NCBI GenBank assembly: GCA_964609455.1
Contig: CAZSRD010000001.1
Coordinates: 70,920-134,919, forward strand
DNA length: 64,000 nt
Source: an uncultured Methanosarcinales archaeon
Lineage (GTDB): Archaea; Nanobdellota; Nanobdellia; Woesearchaeales; JACPBV01
Reading direction: 5' to 3'
Part shown: piece by piece, positions 7,443 to 56,912 of the stretch
Layout: every line of letters starts with the position of its first letter
How positions within the stretch are numbered: the stretch's first letter is position 1
Made by a program: the position numbers and the translations under genes
The notes under the pieces: generated by a model
What the model was told of the DNA's origin: nothing
The model's database searches: none
Seen by the model: only the letters and a program-made list of their open reading frames with translations

Positions 7443-8515
7443 AAGCAGCGCTAATATCCCTGGGTTCTACAAGTTCAGAATGGACTATTAAAGCTATGGA
7501 GAAATATTTTGATAATGTAGATGCTATAAATTTAAGAAATATTGAAGTAAATTTATCATCTGGCAAGTCAGATGTGCTTTATGATGGAAAACCATTAGAA
7601 AAATATGACTGCATATACGCCAAAGGAAGCTTTAGATATGCCCAGACATTAAGGGCTGTAACAGGAGCACTATACCCTGCAACATACATGCCGGTAAAAG
7701 CAGGAGCTTTTACAGTTGGGCATGATAAATTGATAACACACCTTTTCTTACAACAATATAAAATTCCAATGCCTACTACTTATTTAAGTTCATCACCAAC
7801 AGCTGCAAAAAAGATTTTGCAGAAGGTGAATTATCCGATTATATTCAAATTTCCTTCTGGGACAGGAGGAAAAGGAGTCATGTATGCAGAAAGTTTTGCA
7901 GCTGCATCTTCTTTGATGGATGCTTTAGAGGCCTTAAGGCAGCCCTTCCTTATACAAGAATATATAGAAACTGGGGGAGAGGATATAAGGGCTATAGTGG
8001 TTGGAGACAAGGTAGTTGCTGCTATGAAAAGAAAAGCAATTCTTGGAGAGAAAAGAGCTAACATACATGCTGGTGGTGAGGGAGAAGCTTACTTACCTGA
8101 TTCACATATGAAAAAAATAGCTGTTGAAGCAGCCCAGGCAGTAGGGGCAGATATATGCGCTGTTGACCTTTTAGAGAGTGTTAAGGGGCCTGTTGTTGTA
8201 GAAGTTAATTTAAGCCCTGGATTGCAGGGAATAACAAAAGCAACTGGCATAGATGTTGCTGATAAGATTGCCAAGTTTCTTTATGAAAAAACAAAAACAT
8301 TTACAGAAAAAGGCACTAAAAAAGGAACAGGGGATATTATGAAAGAGATTGGCGTTGATAAAAAGGCAAAGGAGCAGCAGATTGTTACAAATCTTGACTT
8401 TAGGGGCGAGAGAATCCTATTGCCTAAATTAGTCACAGAGTTATGTAATTTTGATGATAAGCACGAGTGTGTAATAAAGATAAAGAAAGGAAAAATGGAG
8501 ATTGAGAGAGTATAA
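7439..8515 (+). CDS. rimK: RimK-family ATP-grasp alpha-L-glutamate ligase with a ~60-aa C-terminal extension
   Basis: ATP-grasp core (FPSGTGGKGVMYAE, IQEYIETGGEDIRAIVVGD, AVDLLES). 358 aa versus ~300 for canonical RimK. Confidence 0.7.
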   Translation: MKAALISLGSTSSEWTIKAMEKYFDNVDAINLRNIEVNLSSGKSDVLYDGKPLEKYDCIYAKGSFRYAQTLRAVTGALYPATYMPVKAGAFTVGHDKLITHLFLQQYKIPMPTTYLSSSPTAAKKILQKVNYPIIFKFPSGTGGKGVMYAESFAAASSLMDALEALRQPFLIQEYIETGGEDIRAIVVGDKVVAAMKRKAILGEKRANIHAGGEGEAYLPDSHMKKIAVEAAQAVGADICAVDLLESVKGPVVVEVNLSPGLQGITKATGIDVADKIAKFLYEKTKTFTEKGTKKGTGDIMKEIGVDKKAKEQQIVTNLDFRGERILLPKLVTELCNFDDKHECVIKIKKGKMEIERV

Positions 8516-9226
8516 TTATTCTAGAAATTTAGCTGCGAGTTTTTTTCCTGCACTTCCCGGCAGGAATTTTATGAGATTAAAGAACGCTGTTTCTGGCAAT
8601 AAACCTATATTGTTATTTTTGAAATTTTCCACAAAAAATGAAGGGTCTTTTATATAGCCATCATAGATTTTTGCCAGTAAAGCTGCTCTCAATGTTATCC
8701 TATCATTTTCTATATTGAAAGGCGGATCTTTGAAGAGGTCCTCTTTGCTTATACCGTTCTTTGATAAAACTGAATATGGGTCGTTTGAAGTCAAAGCAAG
8801 GATGTATTGATTTTTCATCAATACTTTCTCACCTATTGGGATACGCTCATCAATATTTTCCAGGGCCTCAACATTAATGAAGATTATCTTGTAGTAATCA
8901 TCTAATAACGTGTTGTAAAACCTTTCTTTGATATATGTGGTGTAAAACAGTGTTTCTTCTGCGTTTAAATACCTTAGTTCTTCACCTGCGATTAGGGCAG
9001 TGATGAATTCATCCTTATTTTGCAATATTATTAATTTGTCATCATTTAAAAAATTCTCCTTTAGGCTTCTCATATCCTGGACTACAAAAGAGCCAAAAAT
9101 TACAGAGAAGATTATCAATGTTAAAATTGAGAATGCTATTGCCTTAATTGTCTTTTCCACTATGATTAGAATAAGCGCTATTATGAATATCATCAATGTC
9201 AGGCTTGAGAACAGCATAATATCCAT
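8516..9226 (-). CDS. Membrane-anchored hypothetical protein
   Basis: Two N-terminal hydrophobic helices followed by a soluble domain. 236 aa. Confidence 0.35.
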   Translation of the reverse strand: MDIMLFSSLTLMIFIIALILIIVEKTIKAIAFSILTLIIFSVIFGSFVVQDMRSLKENFLNDDKLIILQNKDEFITALIAGEELRYLNAEETLFYTTYIKERFYNTLLDDYYKIIFINVEALENIDERIPIGEKVLMKNQYILALTSNDPYSVLSKNGISKEDLFKDPPFNIENDRITLRAALLAKIYDGYIKDPSFFVENFKNNNIGLLPETAFFNLIKFLPGSAGKKLAAKFLE

Positions 9227-16474: not shown

Positions 16475-16547
16475 AGCCCCGTAGTCTAGCGGTCAAGGAT
16501 AGGGCCCTCTGGAGGCTCTGACGGCAGTTCGAATCTGCCCGGGGCTA
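16475..16547 (+). tRNA. tRNA-Gln (anticodon CTG)
   Basis: Acceptor AGCCCCG/CGGGGCT, T-arm GGCAG-TTCGAAT-CTGCC, anticodon loop CTCTGGA. No encoded CCA. Followed by CTTTTT. Confidence 0.8.
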
Positions 16548-16553
16548 CTTTTT

Positions 16554-53161: not shown

Positions 53162-53308
53162 ATGGCAGAAATAATGCAAAACAGAATGGTTTTTGCAAAC
53201 GAACCAAATTGGGTATACTGCTACAATTGCAAAACAGAAATGAGCTTTAATGGACATGGTTATGAGTGCCCGGTGTGTGGCTCTATGTATTTAGACAGAG
53301 GTGATTAA
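53162..53308 (+). CDS. Small zinc-ribbon protein (48 aa, CxxC...CxxC)
   Basis: Hand translation MAEIMQNRMVFANEPNWVYCYNCKTEMSFNGHGYECPVCGSMYLDRGD. Confidence 0.45.
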   Translation: MAEIMQNRMVFANEPNWVYCYNCKTEMSFNGHGYECPVCGSMYLDRGD

Positions 53309-53437
53309 ATGAAAAGAAGAATATGTGTAAGTTGCGGCTCTAAAATTATGAAGAGCGCATTTCATGATCCCTATTTATGCAGGGAATGTGAGAAAGAGGT
53401 GAAAGAAGAGCAAAGGTTTGCTTTTCTAGATGGTTAA
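53309..53437 (+). CDS. Small zinc-ribbon protein (42 aa, CxxC...CxxC)
   Basis: Hand translation MKRRICVSCGSKIMKSAFHDPYLCRECEKEVKEEQRFAFLDG. AGAGGTG precedes the ATG, which abuts the previous stop. Confidence 0.45.
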   Translation: MKRRICVSCGSKIMKSAFHDPYLCRECEKEVKEEQRFAFLDG

Positions 53438-53641
53438 ATGCAGCGGGAAAATCGGAAAAAGCCATAAATTCAGCGGAAAGCCATAAACACTTCGTGTTTA
53501 ATGTCACTGAATTTAATGTTACTGATTTTCCCTGGTCTCTTTTTGCTTACAAAAAGAGGAGGTGGTAAAATTGGATGAAGGAGAAGATCATTGGTTTTTT
53601 GTAGAATGTGATGATGATAAAATGATGGAATTTTCAGAAAA

Positions 53642-53791
53642 ATGAAGTCCAAGCTATGTAGATATTGTGGTATGGAGTTTACCGATATTGATTTTCCTGC
53701 TCAATTTGATAGAATGATTACTTGTGGTACTTCTGAATGCATGAAATTAAGGAGATGGGAAAGGTTGGGGATAAAAGAAGAAGGTTTTTAG
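53642..53791 (+). CDS. Small zinc-ribbon protein (49 aa, CxxC...CxxxxC). Its N-terminus is paralogous to the 53309 ORF.
   Basis: Hand translation MKSKLCRYCGMEFTDIDFPAQFDRMITCGTSECMKLRRWERLGIKEEGF. A 24-aa acidic TTG-start ORF with an AGGAGGTGG RBS precedes it at 53571-53645. Confidence 0.4.
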   Translation: MKSKLCRYCGMEFTDIDFPAQFDRMITCGTSECMKLRRWERLGIKEEGF

Positions 53792-54723: not shown

Positions 54724-54770
54724 AACCTAGAAGAATGCAATTTGGTTTTTAAGGGTTTCTTTAAGGGGGA

Positions 54771-54801
54771 AATGCCCCCAACGGGATTTGAACCCATGTC
54801 C
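54771..54801 (-). repeat. Exact 31-nt copy of the tRNA-Glu 3' end (variable loop, T-arm, acceptor 3' strand, discriminator and 2 nt). An att-like remnant.
   Basis: Identical to the sequence beginning at 56679 in the intact tRNA-Glu locus. A further shared flank CTAGAAGAATGC sits at 54728-54739 (matching 56672-56683). Confidence 0.75.
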
Positions 54802-54837
54802 AGTTGGTTTGTGGTCGGTGGTTAGTGGTTTTTGGTT

Positions 54838-54866
54838 GTCGACAAAATCGTTAGATTTTGCTCGAC
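54838..54866 (-). terminator. Hairpin downstream of the 239-aa gene (GTCGACAAAATC-GTTA-GATTTTGCTCGAC)
   Basis: 12-bp stem with one bulge. It lies just past the stop of the minus-strand gene ending at 54935. Confidence 0.3.
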
Positions 54867-54934
54867 TAGGAAAATTTTGAAGAAATTTTCCGTTTCCGCT
54901 TTTGACGGCAGTGAATCCATGTTTTGAACCGATG

Positions 54935-55654
54935 TTAACCACCTCGTTGAGTTTTTATTTTTTCTTCCTGTTCTTCAGGAAAACATTCTTGATTAAAACA
55001 TTTATCACACATACAAGCATGCCAATCTTTGTTATGAGCTGAAATCTTTTTATTGCATTTTTTACAAGTAAAATTCAGGTCTTCATCATGCTTTTTATGG
55101 AATGTTTTTATTTTTTCTTTTATATCCTTAGGGCCTAATGTTTCTGCAAAAGATCCTTCTGACCAAAGGCTTTCCCCACTCATTTTAGGTTTTTCTTCCT
55201 TTTTCATCATCTTTGCGATTTCTTCAGGAGACATTTTTTCGATAGTTTTCTGAGCATGTTTCATTTCTTCTTCAAACATATTATTTGAAGTCTCTGTTCC
55301 AGCTAAAAAACTTAGGAAACATGCCTCTTTTTTGGTCGCTTCTTTCAAATCCTTCTTTAGTTTTGGCCAGAGTTCCTTATCAAAAAATTCTCTCATATCA
55401 TCAATTTCCTCTTGATTAAAGTCGTCCTCATCTGTCACATCTACAGGCTCAGGCGCCTCTTTCCCATATATTTCCTTATACATCTCAGCAGGAGTTTTTC
55501 CAGTATCAGATTGTTTCCTTACATTATTATACCAGTGGAAGAACTCTTCAAGCATTTTTTTGTTTTCTTCTTCGTCTTTAGGTTTTGGTTTATCTTTAAA
55601 AAACTCATCAAAAGCTTGCCTATATTCCTTAACTGCTGGGCTTTTATCTTCCAT
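54935..55654 (-). CDS. Hypothetical Lys/Glu-rich protein with a C-terminal Cys/His zinc-finger-like cluster
   Basis: C-terminus CKKCNKKISAHNKDWHACMCDKC. 239 aa. Lies inside the tRNA-Glu repeat-bounded segment. Confidence 0.4.
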   Translation of the reverse strand: MEDKSPAVKEYRQAFDEFFKDKPKPKDEEENKKMLEEFFHWYNNVRKQSDTGKTPAEMYKEIYGKEAPEPVDVTDEDDFNQEEIDDMREFFDKELWPKLKKDLKEATKKEACFLSFLAGTETSNNMFEEEMKHAQKTIEKMSPEEIAKMMKKEEKPKMSGESLWSEGSFAETLGPKDIKEKIKTFHKKHDEDLNFTCKKCNKKISAHNKDWHACMCDKCFNQECFPEEQEEKIKTQRGG

Positions 55655-55707
55655 AGTTTAAACCTCACAATTTTTCTCAATAAGTCAACTTAATATTAAA
55701 TATTGGT

Positions 55708-56550
55708 TCATTTCAATCTTTTCCTATAGGTATTAGCAATCATCTTTTCATCTTTTTTAACTCTTCTTTCAAGTTTCTTGATATCTTCTTCAGGAGGCAG
55801 TTCTTCTGGTTTTATTCCTCTCTTGGATAATAAGCCCCTTACTTCCGCATTATTCCTTACATGTTCGCCAGTTATTCTATCTTCACCTTCAAGATTATCT
55901 TTCTTTACATTAAAATTAGTGATTTCTGTAGCTAGATTCTTTGCTGTGATAGTGATTGTTGGAAGAAAATCTGCTAAAGGCCTGTTCTTATGGATTTTAA
56001 GCTTACTTTTCATCATGGCAGTAGTATAACCTCCAAATAATGCTTTATCCCCTTTGCTTCTTATTCTTGCAAATCCTGCTTCATCAACTCCCTTTTCATA
56101 GATTAGCTTAGAAAGCTCTGTCTCAGATGCCACTAATTTCTGCCTTGCACTTAATCTTTCAATTAGTGCAATCCTTTCTTCAATCAATTCTTGTTTTCTT
56201 GTTTGTACTGCAAAATAACTTTGAGCAAAAGCTATCTGCTCTTTTCTAGGATCTCCGTTTTGAGCAATTAAATAACATGCATATCTTGTAAGCATGATAT
56301 CCTCAATTTCCCTCTCTGCTTCAGAACCAATCTTGACCTTTTTCCTGATGTCAGGAAAATGGTCGCTTACCTCCTGTCCCGAGTTCCTGCAGGATTCTTT
56401 TGCTTTGGCAATTACATTTAGAAAATTCTCCCATTTATTATACCCTAATAACTGCTGCAAATCTCTTGCAAACCAAAACTCTATGCCATCAGCTTCATTA
56501 GCATAATCCTCAAAGGATTTTCTAAGTTTTATTATAATCTCTTTTTTCAT
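55708..56550 (-). CDS. DinD / RhuM-family (DNA-damage-inducible protein D-like) protein, a common mobile-element cargo
   Basis: N-terminus IIKLRKSFEDYANEADGIEFWFARDLQQLLGYNKWENFLNVIAKAKESCRNSG matches the conserved DinD/RhuM N-terminal block. 280 aa. Confidence 0.6.
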   Translation of the reverse strand: MKKEIIIKLRKSFEDYANEADGIEFWFARDLQQLLGYNKWENFLNVIAKAKESCRNSGQEVSDHFPDIRKKVKIGSEAEREIEDIMLTRYACYLIAQNGDPRKEQIAFAQSYFAVQTRKQELIEERIALIERLSARQKLVASETELSKLIYEKGVDEAGFARIRSKGDKALFGGYTTAMMKSKLKIHKNRPLADFLPTITITAKNLATEITNFNVKKDNLEGEDRITGEHVRNNAEVRGLLSKRGIKPEELPPEEDIKKLERRVKKDEKMIANTYRKRLK

Positions 56551-56680
56551 CTTCCATGTAAGTAATGAATACTTGTATTTATAATTTTTGAAAATCCACT
56601 CCTTACGTCGTTCTATTGGTTTCTGGTAAGTGGTTAGTAGAACTACGCACTACCCACTACTAACTAAAAAACTAGAAGAA

Positions 56681-56755
56681 TGCCCCCAACGGGATTTGAA
56701 CCCATGTCCCAGCCTCGAAAAGGCTGAATGATTGACCGGACTACACCATGGGGGC
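56681..56755 (-). tRNA. tRNA-Glu (anticodon TTC)
   Basis: Reverse complement reads GCCCCCA-...-CAGCC-TTTTCGA-GGCTG-GGAC-ATGGG-TTCAAAT-CCCGT-TGGGGGC-A. Confidence 0.85.
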
Positions 56756-56806
56756 GTAAGTATTGAGTTTTCTAATTTTTTTATAAATCTTTGTTTTTGT
56801 AAAGAG

Positions 56807-56912
56807 TGGGCTCGCAGGGATTTGAACCCCAGACCGCCGGCTCACTTAGAGCCGTTTGCCTAGAACGTGGCCATATAAGACCGGCGCTCTAACCAGGCTG
56901 AGCTACGAGCCC
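56807..56912 (-). tRNA. Intron-containing tRNA with apparent anticodon TAT (tRNA-Ile2-like). 31-nt intron at the canonical 37/38 position (plus coordinates 56843-56873).
   Basis: Acceptor GGGCTCG/CGAGCCC and an Ile/Met-type D-arm AGCTCAGCCTGGTTAGAGC. Anticodon stem CCGGT/GCCGG with loop CTTATA|intron|A. Intron-end TAAG pairs with loop CTTA (a BHB-like arrangement). 106 nt precursor. Confidence 0.6.

What the first reader, a model, noticed from the sequence alone, without database searches (positions are those of the whole stretch)
54728..56757. Duplicated tRNA-Glu 3' end brackets a 1.9-kb segment carrying a DinD-like gene. Integrated-element remnant with nested att-like scars.
An exact 31-nt copy of the tRNA-Glu 3' end (variable loop to discriminator, plus 2 nt) sits at 54771-54801. 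It lies 1.9 kb from the intact tRNA-Glu (56681-56755), in the same orientation. A second, shorter shared flank (CTAGAAGAATGC) sits at 54728-54739. So one side carries two nested partial copies separated by a 32-nt insert.

Between the repeats lie only a DinD/RhuM-like gene and a Zn-finger hypothetical, with no integrase. This is the classic signature of site-specific integration into a tRNA 3' end followed by decay, possibly more than once.

An alternative is a Nanoarchaeum-style split-tRNA 3' half. That is less likely, because the sequence 5' of the copy (…AACCAACT) does not recreate the Glu anticodon stem.
Basis: partly seen in the sequence, partly recalled or inferred. Interest (0 to 1): 0.7.

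Follow-up and report, generated by a model that had tools for sequence, protein, structure and literature searches.

The report
Integrase-less mobile-element remnant at tRNA-Glu
A 1.9-kb piece of foreign DNA carrying a dinD gene sits behind a tRNA-Glu gene between two copies of the tRNA's 3' end. It is a cut-down relative of an 8-kb integrase-bearing element found in related tiny (DPANN) archaea, so it is an ordinary kind of feature in a little-studied group.

Summary
An exact 31-mer, the tRNA-Glu(UUC) variable loop through the discriminator plus 2 nt, occurs at 54771-54801 and 56679-56709. Neither is expected by chance.

Contig L013 carries a complete relative: tRNA-Gln, a tyrosine integrase, 8 kb of cargo, a dinD 86% identical in protein, and a partial tRNA-Gln copy. 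The 33 nt just upstream of the partial tRNA copy are 91% identical between L013 and the window, although the target tRNA differs.

Three more integrase-less cassettes share this end sequence:
- L033, at tRNA-Glu(CUC), carries an MNT-HEPN pair.
- L036, at tRNA-Gln(CUG), carries dinD.
- L021, at tRNA-Gln, has a decayed end.

Related integrases sit directly 3' of tRNA-Gln or tRNA-Glu genes. The window has no integrase, so its segment is a captured remnant, or possibly a cassette moved in trans. Its cargo matches candidate anti-phage families.

Three things remain open:
- whether the integrase gene is split by integration, as in SSV-type elements
- the history of the outer scar
- whether the window's join across a 190-nt repeat was assembled correctly

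This is a new member of a known kind, of moderate interest.

The parts
56681..56755 (-). Intact tRNA-Glu(UUC). This is the integration target, and its 3' part is the proximal repeat.
   Evidence: ARAGORN; Rfam RF00005, 56.7 bits
56672..56709 (-). attL repeat. It consists of the 31-nt core (56679-56709) plus a 7-nt extension that reappears in the outer scar.
   Evidence: Exact repeats
56598..56678 (-). Left end (LE) of the element. It holds a T-run (56666-56671), a diverged copy of the G/T-rich repeat that starts the integrase ORF in intact relatives (56641-56663), and a second copy of the A/C-rich terminal motif (56616-56638).
   Evidence: About 80% identical, with indels, to the LE of cassette L033. 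The motif at 56616-56638 matches the right-end motif at 20 of 23 positions, and 0 of 500 shuffles reach that. The resemblance to the attL-side sequence of L029, L027 and L013 is 16 of 23 by my own reading of the sequences printed.
56551..56597 (-). Conserved dinD upstream region containing TTATAAATA, a likely promoter.
   Evidence: Aligns with the dinD upstream regions of L013 and L036
55708..56550 (-). dinD (280 aa; Bro-N N-terminal domain). This is cargo gene 1.
   Evidence: NCBIfam NF008573, 363 bits; Pfam Bro-N; PADLOC candidate defence family PDC-S13, E 1.5e-117; more than 8000 homologues; also found on bacterial plasmids
54935..55654 (-). 239-aa protein with a C-terminal zinc ribbon. This is cargo gene 2.
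   Evidence: ORF; homologues up to 84% identical in Nanoarchaeota-type contigs; a 78% homologue lies between tRNA-Gln and tRNA-Pro in L021
54802..54962 (-). Right end (RE) of the element. It holds GAGGTGGTTAAC (54934-54945), a decayed T-arm-like block (54905-54922) and five AACCANN heptads (54803-54837). It is the remnant of the integrase 5' region or of its binding sites.
   Evidence: 98% identical to L033 5316-5476. Its last 33 nt are 91% identical to L013 8902-8934. Alignment A2 covers five loci.
54771..54801 (-). attR: the partial tRNA-Glu 3' copy (31 nt, exact).
54739..54770 (-). 32-nt filler between the attR core and the outer scar. It contains a TATA-like TTAAAAA about 30 nt before the nuclease ATG. 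Its first bases pair with the GGGGG of the core (54765-54779).
   Evidence: Sequence
54727..54738 (-). Outer scar GCATTCTTCTAG (sense strand). It is the last 3 nt of the tRNA plus the first 9 nt of the LE.
   Evidence: Exact 12-mer, found twice against 0.01 expected. The same LE start follows tRNA-Glu(CUC) in L033.

Best explanation
Window 54802-56678 is an integrase-less derivative of a family of integrative elements that target the 3' end of tRNA-Gln and tRNA-Glu genes. The host is a low-GC DPANN archaeon of Nanoarchaeota or Woesearchaeota type.

Proposed mechanism:
1. A circular element carried an attP core identical to the tRNA 3' end, running from the variable loop to a few bases past the discriminator. 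Inverted arrays of 7-nt repeats (TGGTTNG / CNAACCA) flanked the core at the 5' end of a tyrosine-integrase gene.
2. Recombination with the tRNA gene rebuilt an intact tRNA at one end (attL, 56709->56679). It left the displaced 3' copy at the other end (attR, 54801->54771).
3. Later, the integrase and the cargo next to it were deleted. What remains is about 80 nt of the left end, dinD, a zinc-ribbon gene and about 160 nt of the right end.
4. The two genes are intact and are now fixed host genes. This is the 'gene capture' outcome described for archaea.
5. The 12-nt outer scar, 32 nt further out, is a stump of at least one other event at the same site.

Shown directly: the repeats; homology of the right end and of the dinD module to an intact integrase-bearing element; the family integrases lying directly 3' of tRNA-Gln or tRNA-Glu; and other cassettes with the same ends but different cargo.

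Inferred only: the order of events; the deletion; the role of the heptad repeats as integrase-binding sites; and whether integration splits the integrase gene.
For: 1. The repeats are exact, in direct orientation, and far beyond chance.

2. L013 is an intact relative. It reads tRNA-Gln 634-706, Phage_integrase 755-1507, cargo, dinD 8001-8849 (86% protein identity) and a 32-nt partial tRNA-Gln copy at 8940-8971.

3. The 33 nt immediately 5' of the partial copy are 91% identical between the window and L013, at BLAST E 7.7e-07, although the tRNA differs. dinD and 47 nt upstream of it are 84% identical at the DNA level.

4. Members of the same integrase family lie directly 3' of tRNA-Gln (L026, L027, L028) and tRNA-Glu(CUC) (L029, L030). 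The G/T-rich heptad array follows the tRNA end in each, and it is the inverted repeat of the window's right-end motif.

5. Other integrase-less cassettes share these ends.
- L033: tRNA-Glu(CUC), an LE about 80% identical to the window's, an MNT-HEPN pair, an RE 98% identical, then the core.
- L036: tRNA-Gln(CUG), dinD (88% protein identity), a 110-aa ORF, an RE homologous to L013's, then a 35-nt partial copy.
- L021: a decayed RE after the zinc-ribbon homologue.

6. The cargo is typical of mobile DNA. dinD matches PADLOC candidate defence family PDC-S13 and occurs on Bacteroidota plasmids at 66-68% DNA identity. The MNT-HEPN pair matches PDC-M05.

7. The site varies in the population. L006 joins the same dinD segment and RE to a different flank, and L033 and L006 carry different fillers between the same boundaries.

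8. The concept is established: tRNA-targeting archaeal integrases, and capture of elements after integrase loss (PMC8371274, PMC7253208).
Against: - I found no empty site, meaning tRNA-Glu directly followed by the nuclease gene. All five nuclease-bearing contigs looked up carry the partial copy, or were listed as similar.
- The segment does not differ in GC content from its surroundings.
- The window has no integrase. No free or viral form of the family was found.
- The LE resembles the integrase 5' region only weakly (16 of 23).
- The RE is a 190-nt repeat, 98-100% identical, within this community. The ENA contigs L001, L002, L003 and L009 all end inside it. None of the contigs I fetched spans from the zinc-ribbon gene through the RE to the nuclease. 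Only the window makes that join, so pairing this attR with this attL rests on one assembly.
Confidence: 0.85

Rival explanations
1. The segment is not dead. It is a non-autonomous cassette that an integrase from a full-length relative can still excise, integrate or swap in trans. Conserved LE and RE would bracket exchangeable defence-type cargo at tRNA-Glu and tRNA-Gln genes.
For: - Two loci have nearly the same ends but different cargo. The RE is 98% identical and the LE about 80% identical between the window and L033.
- A third and a fourth cassette share this kind of end (L036, L021).
- Both att cores are exact, and the heptad array next to attR is intact.
- The population varies exactly at the core. 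L006 and the window have different flanks, and L006 and L033 have different fillers between identical boundaries.
- Excision of split-integrase elements in trans is documented for SSV2 and pTN3 (PMC8371274).
Against: - No integrase specific for this core was found in the window or in the same samples.
- The heptad array on the LE side is degenerate.
- No circular or empty-site junction was seen.
- The variation could come from homologous recombination or from misassembly at a 190-nt repeat.
Confidence: 0.3
2. The partial tRNA copy arose by local duplication or illegitimate recombination unrelated to a mobile element, and dinD is an ancestral chromosomal gene.
For: GC content shows no contrast. 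dinD is very widespread in DPANN, and in L017 it again lies near ScpA and tRNA genes.
Against: The element-specific terminus next to the copy is shared with an integrase-bearing element at a different tRNA. The same end structure recurs at four tRNA genes with different cargo.
Confidence: 0.03
3. The copy at 54771-54801 is the 3' half of a split or permuted tRNA.
For: It contains a complete T arm and the 3' strand of the acceptor stem. A CCCCC run follows that could pair with GGGGG.
Against: An intact tRNA-Glu(UUC) is 1.9 kb away, and an intact tRNA-Glu(CUC) exists in the community. The upstream sequence is the conserved heptad terminus, not an anticodon stem or a leader. The flank holds no sequence resembling a D arm.
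Confidence: 0.01
4. The specific pairing in the window is an assembly chimera across the 190-nt RE repeat. The nuclease-side attR would really belong to another cassette, for example the one at tRNA-Glu(CUC).
For: ENA contigs break inside the RE (L001 at 54912, L002 at 54890, L003 at 54807, L009 at 54918). L033 carries a 98% identical RE. L006 joins the dinD side to another flank.
Against: The window comes from a contig of at least 64 kb, and look-ups put dinD and the nuclease on a 151-kb record. The outer 12-mer matches the window's own attL flank, though it also matches L033's.
Confidence: 0.1

Closest known systems
SSV-type (type I, 'suicidal') integrase elements of archaea: SSV1, pTN3, pT26-2, and the TKV elements of Thermococcus
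   Same: - They integrate into the 3' part of a tRNA gene and leave direct repeats of the tRNA end.
- The attP core lies at the 5' end of the integrase ORF.
- The L013 reconstruction gives one open 302-aa ORF across the core.
- Integrated copies decay into captured genes (PMC8371274, PMC7253208).
   Different: - The integrase has the Pfam Phage_integrase domain PF00589 and no PF16795, even at E <= 10. It has no PDB match to SSV1 Int.
- The hosts are low-GC DPANN archaea from marine and other environmental metagenomes. The known cases are described from hyperthermophiles.
- The part upstream of the core is only about 25 aa.
- Every integrated copy keeps its own ATG or GTG start, so inactivation by integration is not shown.
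pNOB8-type (type II) archaeal integrases and bacterial P4-like tRNA-linked genomic islands
   Same: The integrase gene lies next to attL at a tRNA 3' end. The integrase may stay intact after integration. Islands decay into integrase-less islets bounded by a partial tRNA copy.
   Different: Here the integrase ORF runs open through the tRNA end in several members (P0244, P0248, P0258, P0261). The core is flanked by inverted heptad arrays inside the ORF.
Integron gene cassettes
   Same: Short units of one or two genes, often for defence or toxin-antitoxin functions, carry conserved recombination ends. They are stacked at one site and lack their own recombinase.
   Different: There is no attC hairpin, no platform-encoded integron integrase and no Pc promoter. 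The site is a tRNA gene, and the repeats are tRNA 3' ends.
Split tRNA genes of Nanoarchaeum equitans
   Same: A free-standing piece shaped like a tRNA 3' half, in a DPANN genome.
   Different: An intact gene is present, and there is no complementary leader or 5' half. The upstream sequence is an element terminus.

Membership tests
tRNA-targeting integrative element (integrated form) | Direct repeat of the tRNA 3' end, with the intact tRNA at one boundary | tested here: met
   Exact 31-mer, two copies in the same orientation, with the tRNA intact
tRNA-targeting integrative element (integrated form) | A site-specific recombinase encoded inside the element | tested here: not met
   No integrase in the 64-kb window by tblastn. 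The homologous element L013 and its relatives do encode one. The window copy is therefore a derivative, not an autonomous member.
tRNA-targeting integrative element (integrated form) | Homology of the element ends or cargo to an autonomous element | tested here: met
   The RE terminus is 91% identical and the dinD module 84% identical to L013. See also alignment A2.
tRNA-targeting integrative element (integrated form) | An empty (unoccupied) target site in relatives | tested here: inconclusive
SSV-type / suicidal integrases | attP core inside the integrase ORF, so that integration splits it into Int(N) and Int(C) | tested here: inconclusive
   For: the L013 junction gives one 302-aa ORF. The ATG frame of L036's RE matches the frame needed by the integrases of L026 and L027. 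Against: the heptad DNA has few possible stop codons, and each Int(C) has its own start next to the APIGTKK motif.
SSV-type / suicidal integrases | Phage_integr_3 domain (PF16795), placing it in the SSV / pTN3 / pT26-2 superfamily | tested here: not met
   Only PF00589 was found (E 7.7e-20). PF16795 is absent at E <= 10.
Tyrosine recombinase (for the family integrase, not present in the window) | The catalytic residues R..K..HxxR..H..Y | tested here: met
   Invariant R in GLR(I)SE, HSLRH, ARH and Y in alignment A1; Pfam PF00589
DinD (NF008573) | Full-length match above the curated cutoff | tested here: met
   363 bits against a cutoff of 242, covering residues 1-273 of 280
Split tRNA | A separate 5' half with a complementary leader, and no intact gene | tested here: not met
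   The intact tRNA-Glu is present. The upstream sequence is the conserved element terminus.

The most novel reading that the evidence does not exclude
The window copy could belong to an undescribed DPANN system with two unusual properties.

1. The tyrosine integrase would be unrelated to the PF16795 'suicidal' clade, yet would carry its attP inside its own gene. That would be an independent origin of self-splitting integrases outside hyperthermophiles.
2. Short integrase-less cassettes with conserved left and right ends would carry candidate defence genes (dinD / PDC-S13, and MNT-HEPN). They would be shuffled in trans among tRNA-Glu and tRNA-Gln genes, much as integron cassettes are.
Probability: 0.2. 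Interest if true: 0.75.

Novelty: new member of a known kind. Interest (0 to 1): 0.42.

Why it matters
Mobile elements of DPANN archaea are poorly described, and their genomes are mostly fragmented metagenome bins. This locus and its relatives give four things:
- a tRNA-Gln/Glu-targeting integrase family with recognisable end sequences
- evidence that candidate defence genes (dinD, MNT-HEPN) enter these small genomes this way
- an explanation for assemblies breaking here, because a 190-nt element end is repeated in the community
- a test case for whether integrases that split their own gene exist outside hyperthermophiles

For the window itself the practical result is annotation: attL, attR, the element ends and two captured genes.

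Tried and rejected
Searches that found nothing useful:
- I scanned viral contigs for the att core, the terminal motif, the integrase and the integrase alignment. None gave a hit.
- tblastn of the integrase against phage genomes gave no match.
- The single genome-contig scan, using the terminal motif, returned only the L013 organism again (L025).
- The single metagenome scan, using the core, returned two unrelated 23-tRNA arrays (L031, L032) and the useful L033.

Ideas I considered and rejected or left weak:
- GC contrast as evidence of foreign origin: there is none.
- A decayed third core upstream of dinD: rejected, because that stretch is the conserved dinD promoter region, also present in L013 and L036.
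- L006's filler as a longer decayed tRNA-Glu copy: more likely it is the end of a second element family (AGGTGTCG, a hairpin, then GTGG), also seen in L013 and L021.
- ORF continuity across attP as proof of a suicidal integrase: too weak alone, because the heptad DNA rarely forms stop codons.
- A split or permuted tRNA: rejected.

L041 did not reach the far end of its element.
Full report
**Observation.** The window carries a minus-strand tRNA cluster: Val, Gly, an intron-containing Ile(UAU) and Glu(UUC) at 56681-56755. The 31-mer AATGCCCCCAACGGGATTTGAACCCATGTCC occurs at 54771-54801 and 56679-56709 and nowhere else, even with 3 mismatches allowed. No shuffle produced a match. On the tRNA sense strand it runs from the variable loop to the discriminator plus TT. 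The 32 nt between the two left-hand pieces are bracketed by a 5-nt AATGC duplication.

**Content of the segment.** Between the repeats lie two intact minus-strand genes.
- The 280-aa product of 55708-56550 is DinD. It scores 363 bits against the NCBIfam equivalog NF008573, whose cutoff is 242, and has a Bro-N N-terminal domain.
- The 239-aa product of 54935-55654 has a C-terminal CxxC zinc ribbon and no family assignment.

GC content does not differ from the flanks. tblastn finds no integrase in the 64 kb. The flanking genes are ordinary: a DNase-I-like nuclease on one side, and the tRNA cluster with ScpA on the other.

**Related loci identify the element.** DinD has more than 8000 homologues, many 75-89% identical, in contigs labelled Woesearchaeota or Nanoarchaeota. 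The context of an 86% homologue (L013, a 60-kb JGI contig) is decisive. It reads tRNA-Gln 634-706, a Phage_integrase gene 755-1507, about 6 kb of cargo, dinD 8001-8849, and a 32-nt exact copy of the tRNA-Gln 3' end at 8940-8971. The window segment and L013 share dinD plus 47 nt upstream at 84% DNA identity. They also share the 33 nt immediately 5' of the partial tRNA copy at 91% (E 7.7e-07), although one copy is Glu and the other Gln. These 33 nt are five AACCANN heptads.

The integrase family is small, with 31 clusters. Its members lie directly 3' of tRNA-Gln (L026, L027, L028) or tRNA-Glu(CUC) (L029, L030). In each, the tRNA end is followed after 8-12 nt by TGGTTTGTGGTTGGTAGTTTGTGGTTAGTGGT. 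This is the inverted repeat of the heptad array next to the distal copy. In the circular form the core would therefore be flanked by inverted heptad arrays. I infer that these are recombinase-binding sites.

**More integrase-less cassettes.**
- L033 comes from the same JGI project as contigs that carry an identical dinD. It reads tRNA-Glu(CUC), a left end about 80% identical to window 56680->56590, an MNT-HEPN pair, a right end 98% identical to window 54962->54772, and then the same core.
- L036 reads tRNA-Gln(CUG), dinD (88% protein identity), a 110-aa ORF, a right end homologous to L013's, and a 35-nt partial tRNA copy. Its dinD upstream region matches L013 for more than 100 nt. It therefore looks like an L013-type element with everything from the integrase to dinD deleted.
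- L021 has a decayed right end after a 78% homologue of the zinc-ribbon protein, between tRNA-Gln and tRNA-Pro.

The window segment is one of several reduced derivatives. All of them keep the cargo nearest the right end and lack the integrase side. The cargo is typical of mobile DNA. DinD matches the PADLOC candidate defence family PDC-S13 (E 1.5e-117) and occurs on Bacteroidota plasmids at 66-68% DNA identity. The MNT-HEPN pair matches PDC-M05.

**Mechanism.** Integration by a tyrosine recombinase into the tRNA 3' end, followed by loss of the integrase and fixation of the cargo, is the known 'gene capture' route in archaea (PMC8371274, PMC7253208). The following steps are inferred and not shown: the order of events, the deletion, and binding of the integrase to the heptads.

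The window's left end keeps only a diverged copy of the G/T-rich array (56641-56663, 16 of 23 to L029). It also has a second copy of the A/C-rich motif (56616-56638, 20 of 23, reached by 0 of 500 shuffles). L033 shares this extra copy, so it is part of the common left end of the cassettes.

**Is the integrase 'suicidal'?**

Evidence for:
- Joining L013's right end, core and left interior gives a single 302-aa ORF running from a Shine-Dalgarno-like GAGGTG and an ATG into the integrase.
- L036's right end has an ATG at the equivalent position. Its frame reads the core in the other frame, which is the frame that the L026 and L027 integrases require.
- Length differences between members are multiples of 3 nt. 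Several gene calls run open through the tRNA end.

Evidence against:
- The heptad DNA is poor in the bases needed for stop codons.
- Each integrated integrase has its own ATG or GTG next to the conserved APIGTKK motif.
- The protein lacks PF16795, which marks all known suicidal integrases.
- No free form was found.

I put this at about 45%.

**Nested scars and variation.** The outer 12-mer equals the last 3 nt of the tRNA plus the first 9 nt of the left end. The same left-end start follows tRNA-Glu(CUC) in L033. It therefore looks like the stump of another copy's junction, and I could not reconstruct its history. The 32-nt filler holds a TATA-like TTAAAAA about 30 nt before the nuclease ATG.

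Second scars beyond the distal repeat recur elsewhere. L013, L021 and L006 have G(A/G)AGGTGTCG, a 7-bp hairpin, GTGG and the last 17-20 nt of the tRNA. This suggests that a second element family uses the same tRNAs. L033 also carries a second scar beyond its distal repeat, but with a different filler and without that motif.

L006 joins the window's tRNA cluster, dinD segment and right end (100% identical) to a different flank, a PP2C/SpoIIE gene that L033 shares. L006 and L033 differ in the filler between identical boundaries. This is either recombination at the cores or a further locus.

**Caveat.** The right end is a 190-nt repeat, 98-100% identical, within this community. The ENA contigs L001, L002, L003 and L009 all end inside it. 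No contig I fetched spans from the zinc-ribbon gene through the right end to the nuclease. The window's pairing of this attR with this attL therefore rests on one assembly.

**Verdict.** The feature is a captured, integrase-less derivative of a definable DPANN element family, which makes it a new member of a known kind. Confidence in the element-remnant reading is 0.85. The more novel readings, an independent self-splitting integrase lineage and trans-mobilised cassettes, are possible but unproven.

Noticed in passing
window 56715/56716 (tRNA-Glu positions 37/38); L004 2006-2055; L026 about 1390-1437: Contig L004 is 100% identical to window 58720-55291 except for a 50-nt insertion at the canonical intron position 37/38 of tRNA-Glu(UUC). 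This is an intron presence/absence polymorphism within one population. A similar 48-nt intron (sharing TGATGAAAATC...CAGCAGTTTTGCGATTTC...CATCGAAAAC by eye) sits at 37/38 of a tRNA-Gln in the unrelated contig L026, which suggests a mobile tRNA intron family. The L004 intron folds into a stable helix with z = -4.6.
   Followed up: partly
window 56806-56912 (-): tRNA-Ile(UAU) with a 31-nt intron. Default ARAGORN missed it, but Rfam and ARAGORN in intron mode found it.
   Followed up: yes
window 54905-54945; L013 8846-8895; L036 6718-6770; L021 8712-8765: The right end of the element begins with a conserved GAGGTGGTnAAnATG followed by a T-arm-like hairpin. The stem changes in a compensatory way between loci: CCTGG/CCAGG in L036, CCGGG/CCTGG in L021 and ACAG/CTGT in L013. 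It is decayed in the window. It may be an older att core or a structural element.
   Followed up: partly
L013 about 9060-9110; L021 about 8815-8870; L006 about 2790-2850: A second type of scar lies just beyond attR: G(A/G)AGGTGTCG, a 7-bp hairpin, GTGG and the last 17-20 nt of the tRNA. It occurs at tRNA-Gln and tRNA-Glu sites in three independent contigs. It probably marks another element family that uses the same targets.
   Followed up: partly
window 16475-16548 (+): The 3' end of tRNA-Gln(CUG), GACGGCAGTTCGAATCTGCCCGGGGCTA, is identical to the first 28 nt of the L013 element's 32-nt core. It is followed directly by ordinary sequence. This looks like an unoccupied potential target site in the same genome.
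   Followed up: partly
L031 4561-7891; L032 8636-11966: Two metagenome contigs each carry 23 tRNA genes packed into about 3.3 kb. Their tRNA-Glu has the same 3' end as the window's. They are otherwise unrelated to the window and may be a viral or plasmid tRNA array.
   Followed up: no
L017 2960-3320 and 8925-9150: This marine relative keeps the gene order SRP54, prefoldin, PRPP synthetase, ScpA. Its tRNA genes are interrupted by several long insertions, so ARAGORN misses them. One is a tRNA-Glu(CUC)-like gene directly after dinD. About 5 kb of small ORFs lie between the tRNAs and dinD.
   Followed up: partly
window 55244-55264: Contig L007 lacks 21 nt (7 codons, in frame) of the zinc-ribbon gene. 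This is a strain-level indel that keeps the ORF intact.
   Followed up: yes
L013 9698-16849: The contig carrying the intact element encodes a full MEP isoprenoid pathway (DXS, DXR, IspD/F, a GHMP kinase, GcpE, LytB) next to an archaeal-type ribosomal S15 gene. That is unusual for an archaeon. A related contig in GenBank is labelled Methanosarcinales, which may be a binning error.
   Followed up: no
window 53162-53791: Three small ORFs of 42-49 aa, each with paired CxxC motifs (zinc-ribbon mini-proteins), lie just beyond the nuclease gene. Metagenome gene calls predict the same ORFs.
   Followed up: no
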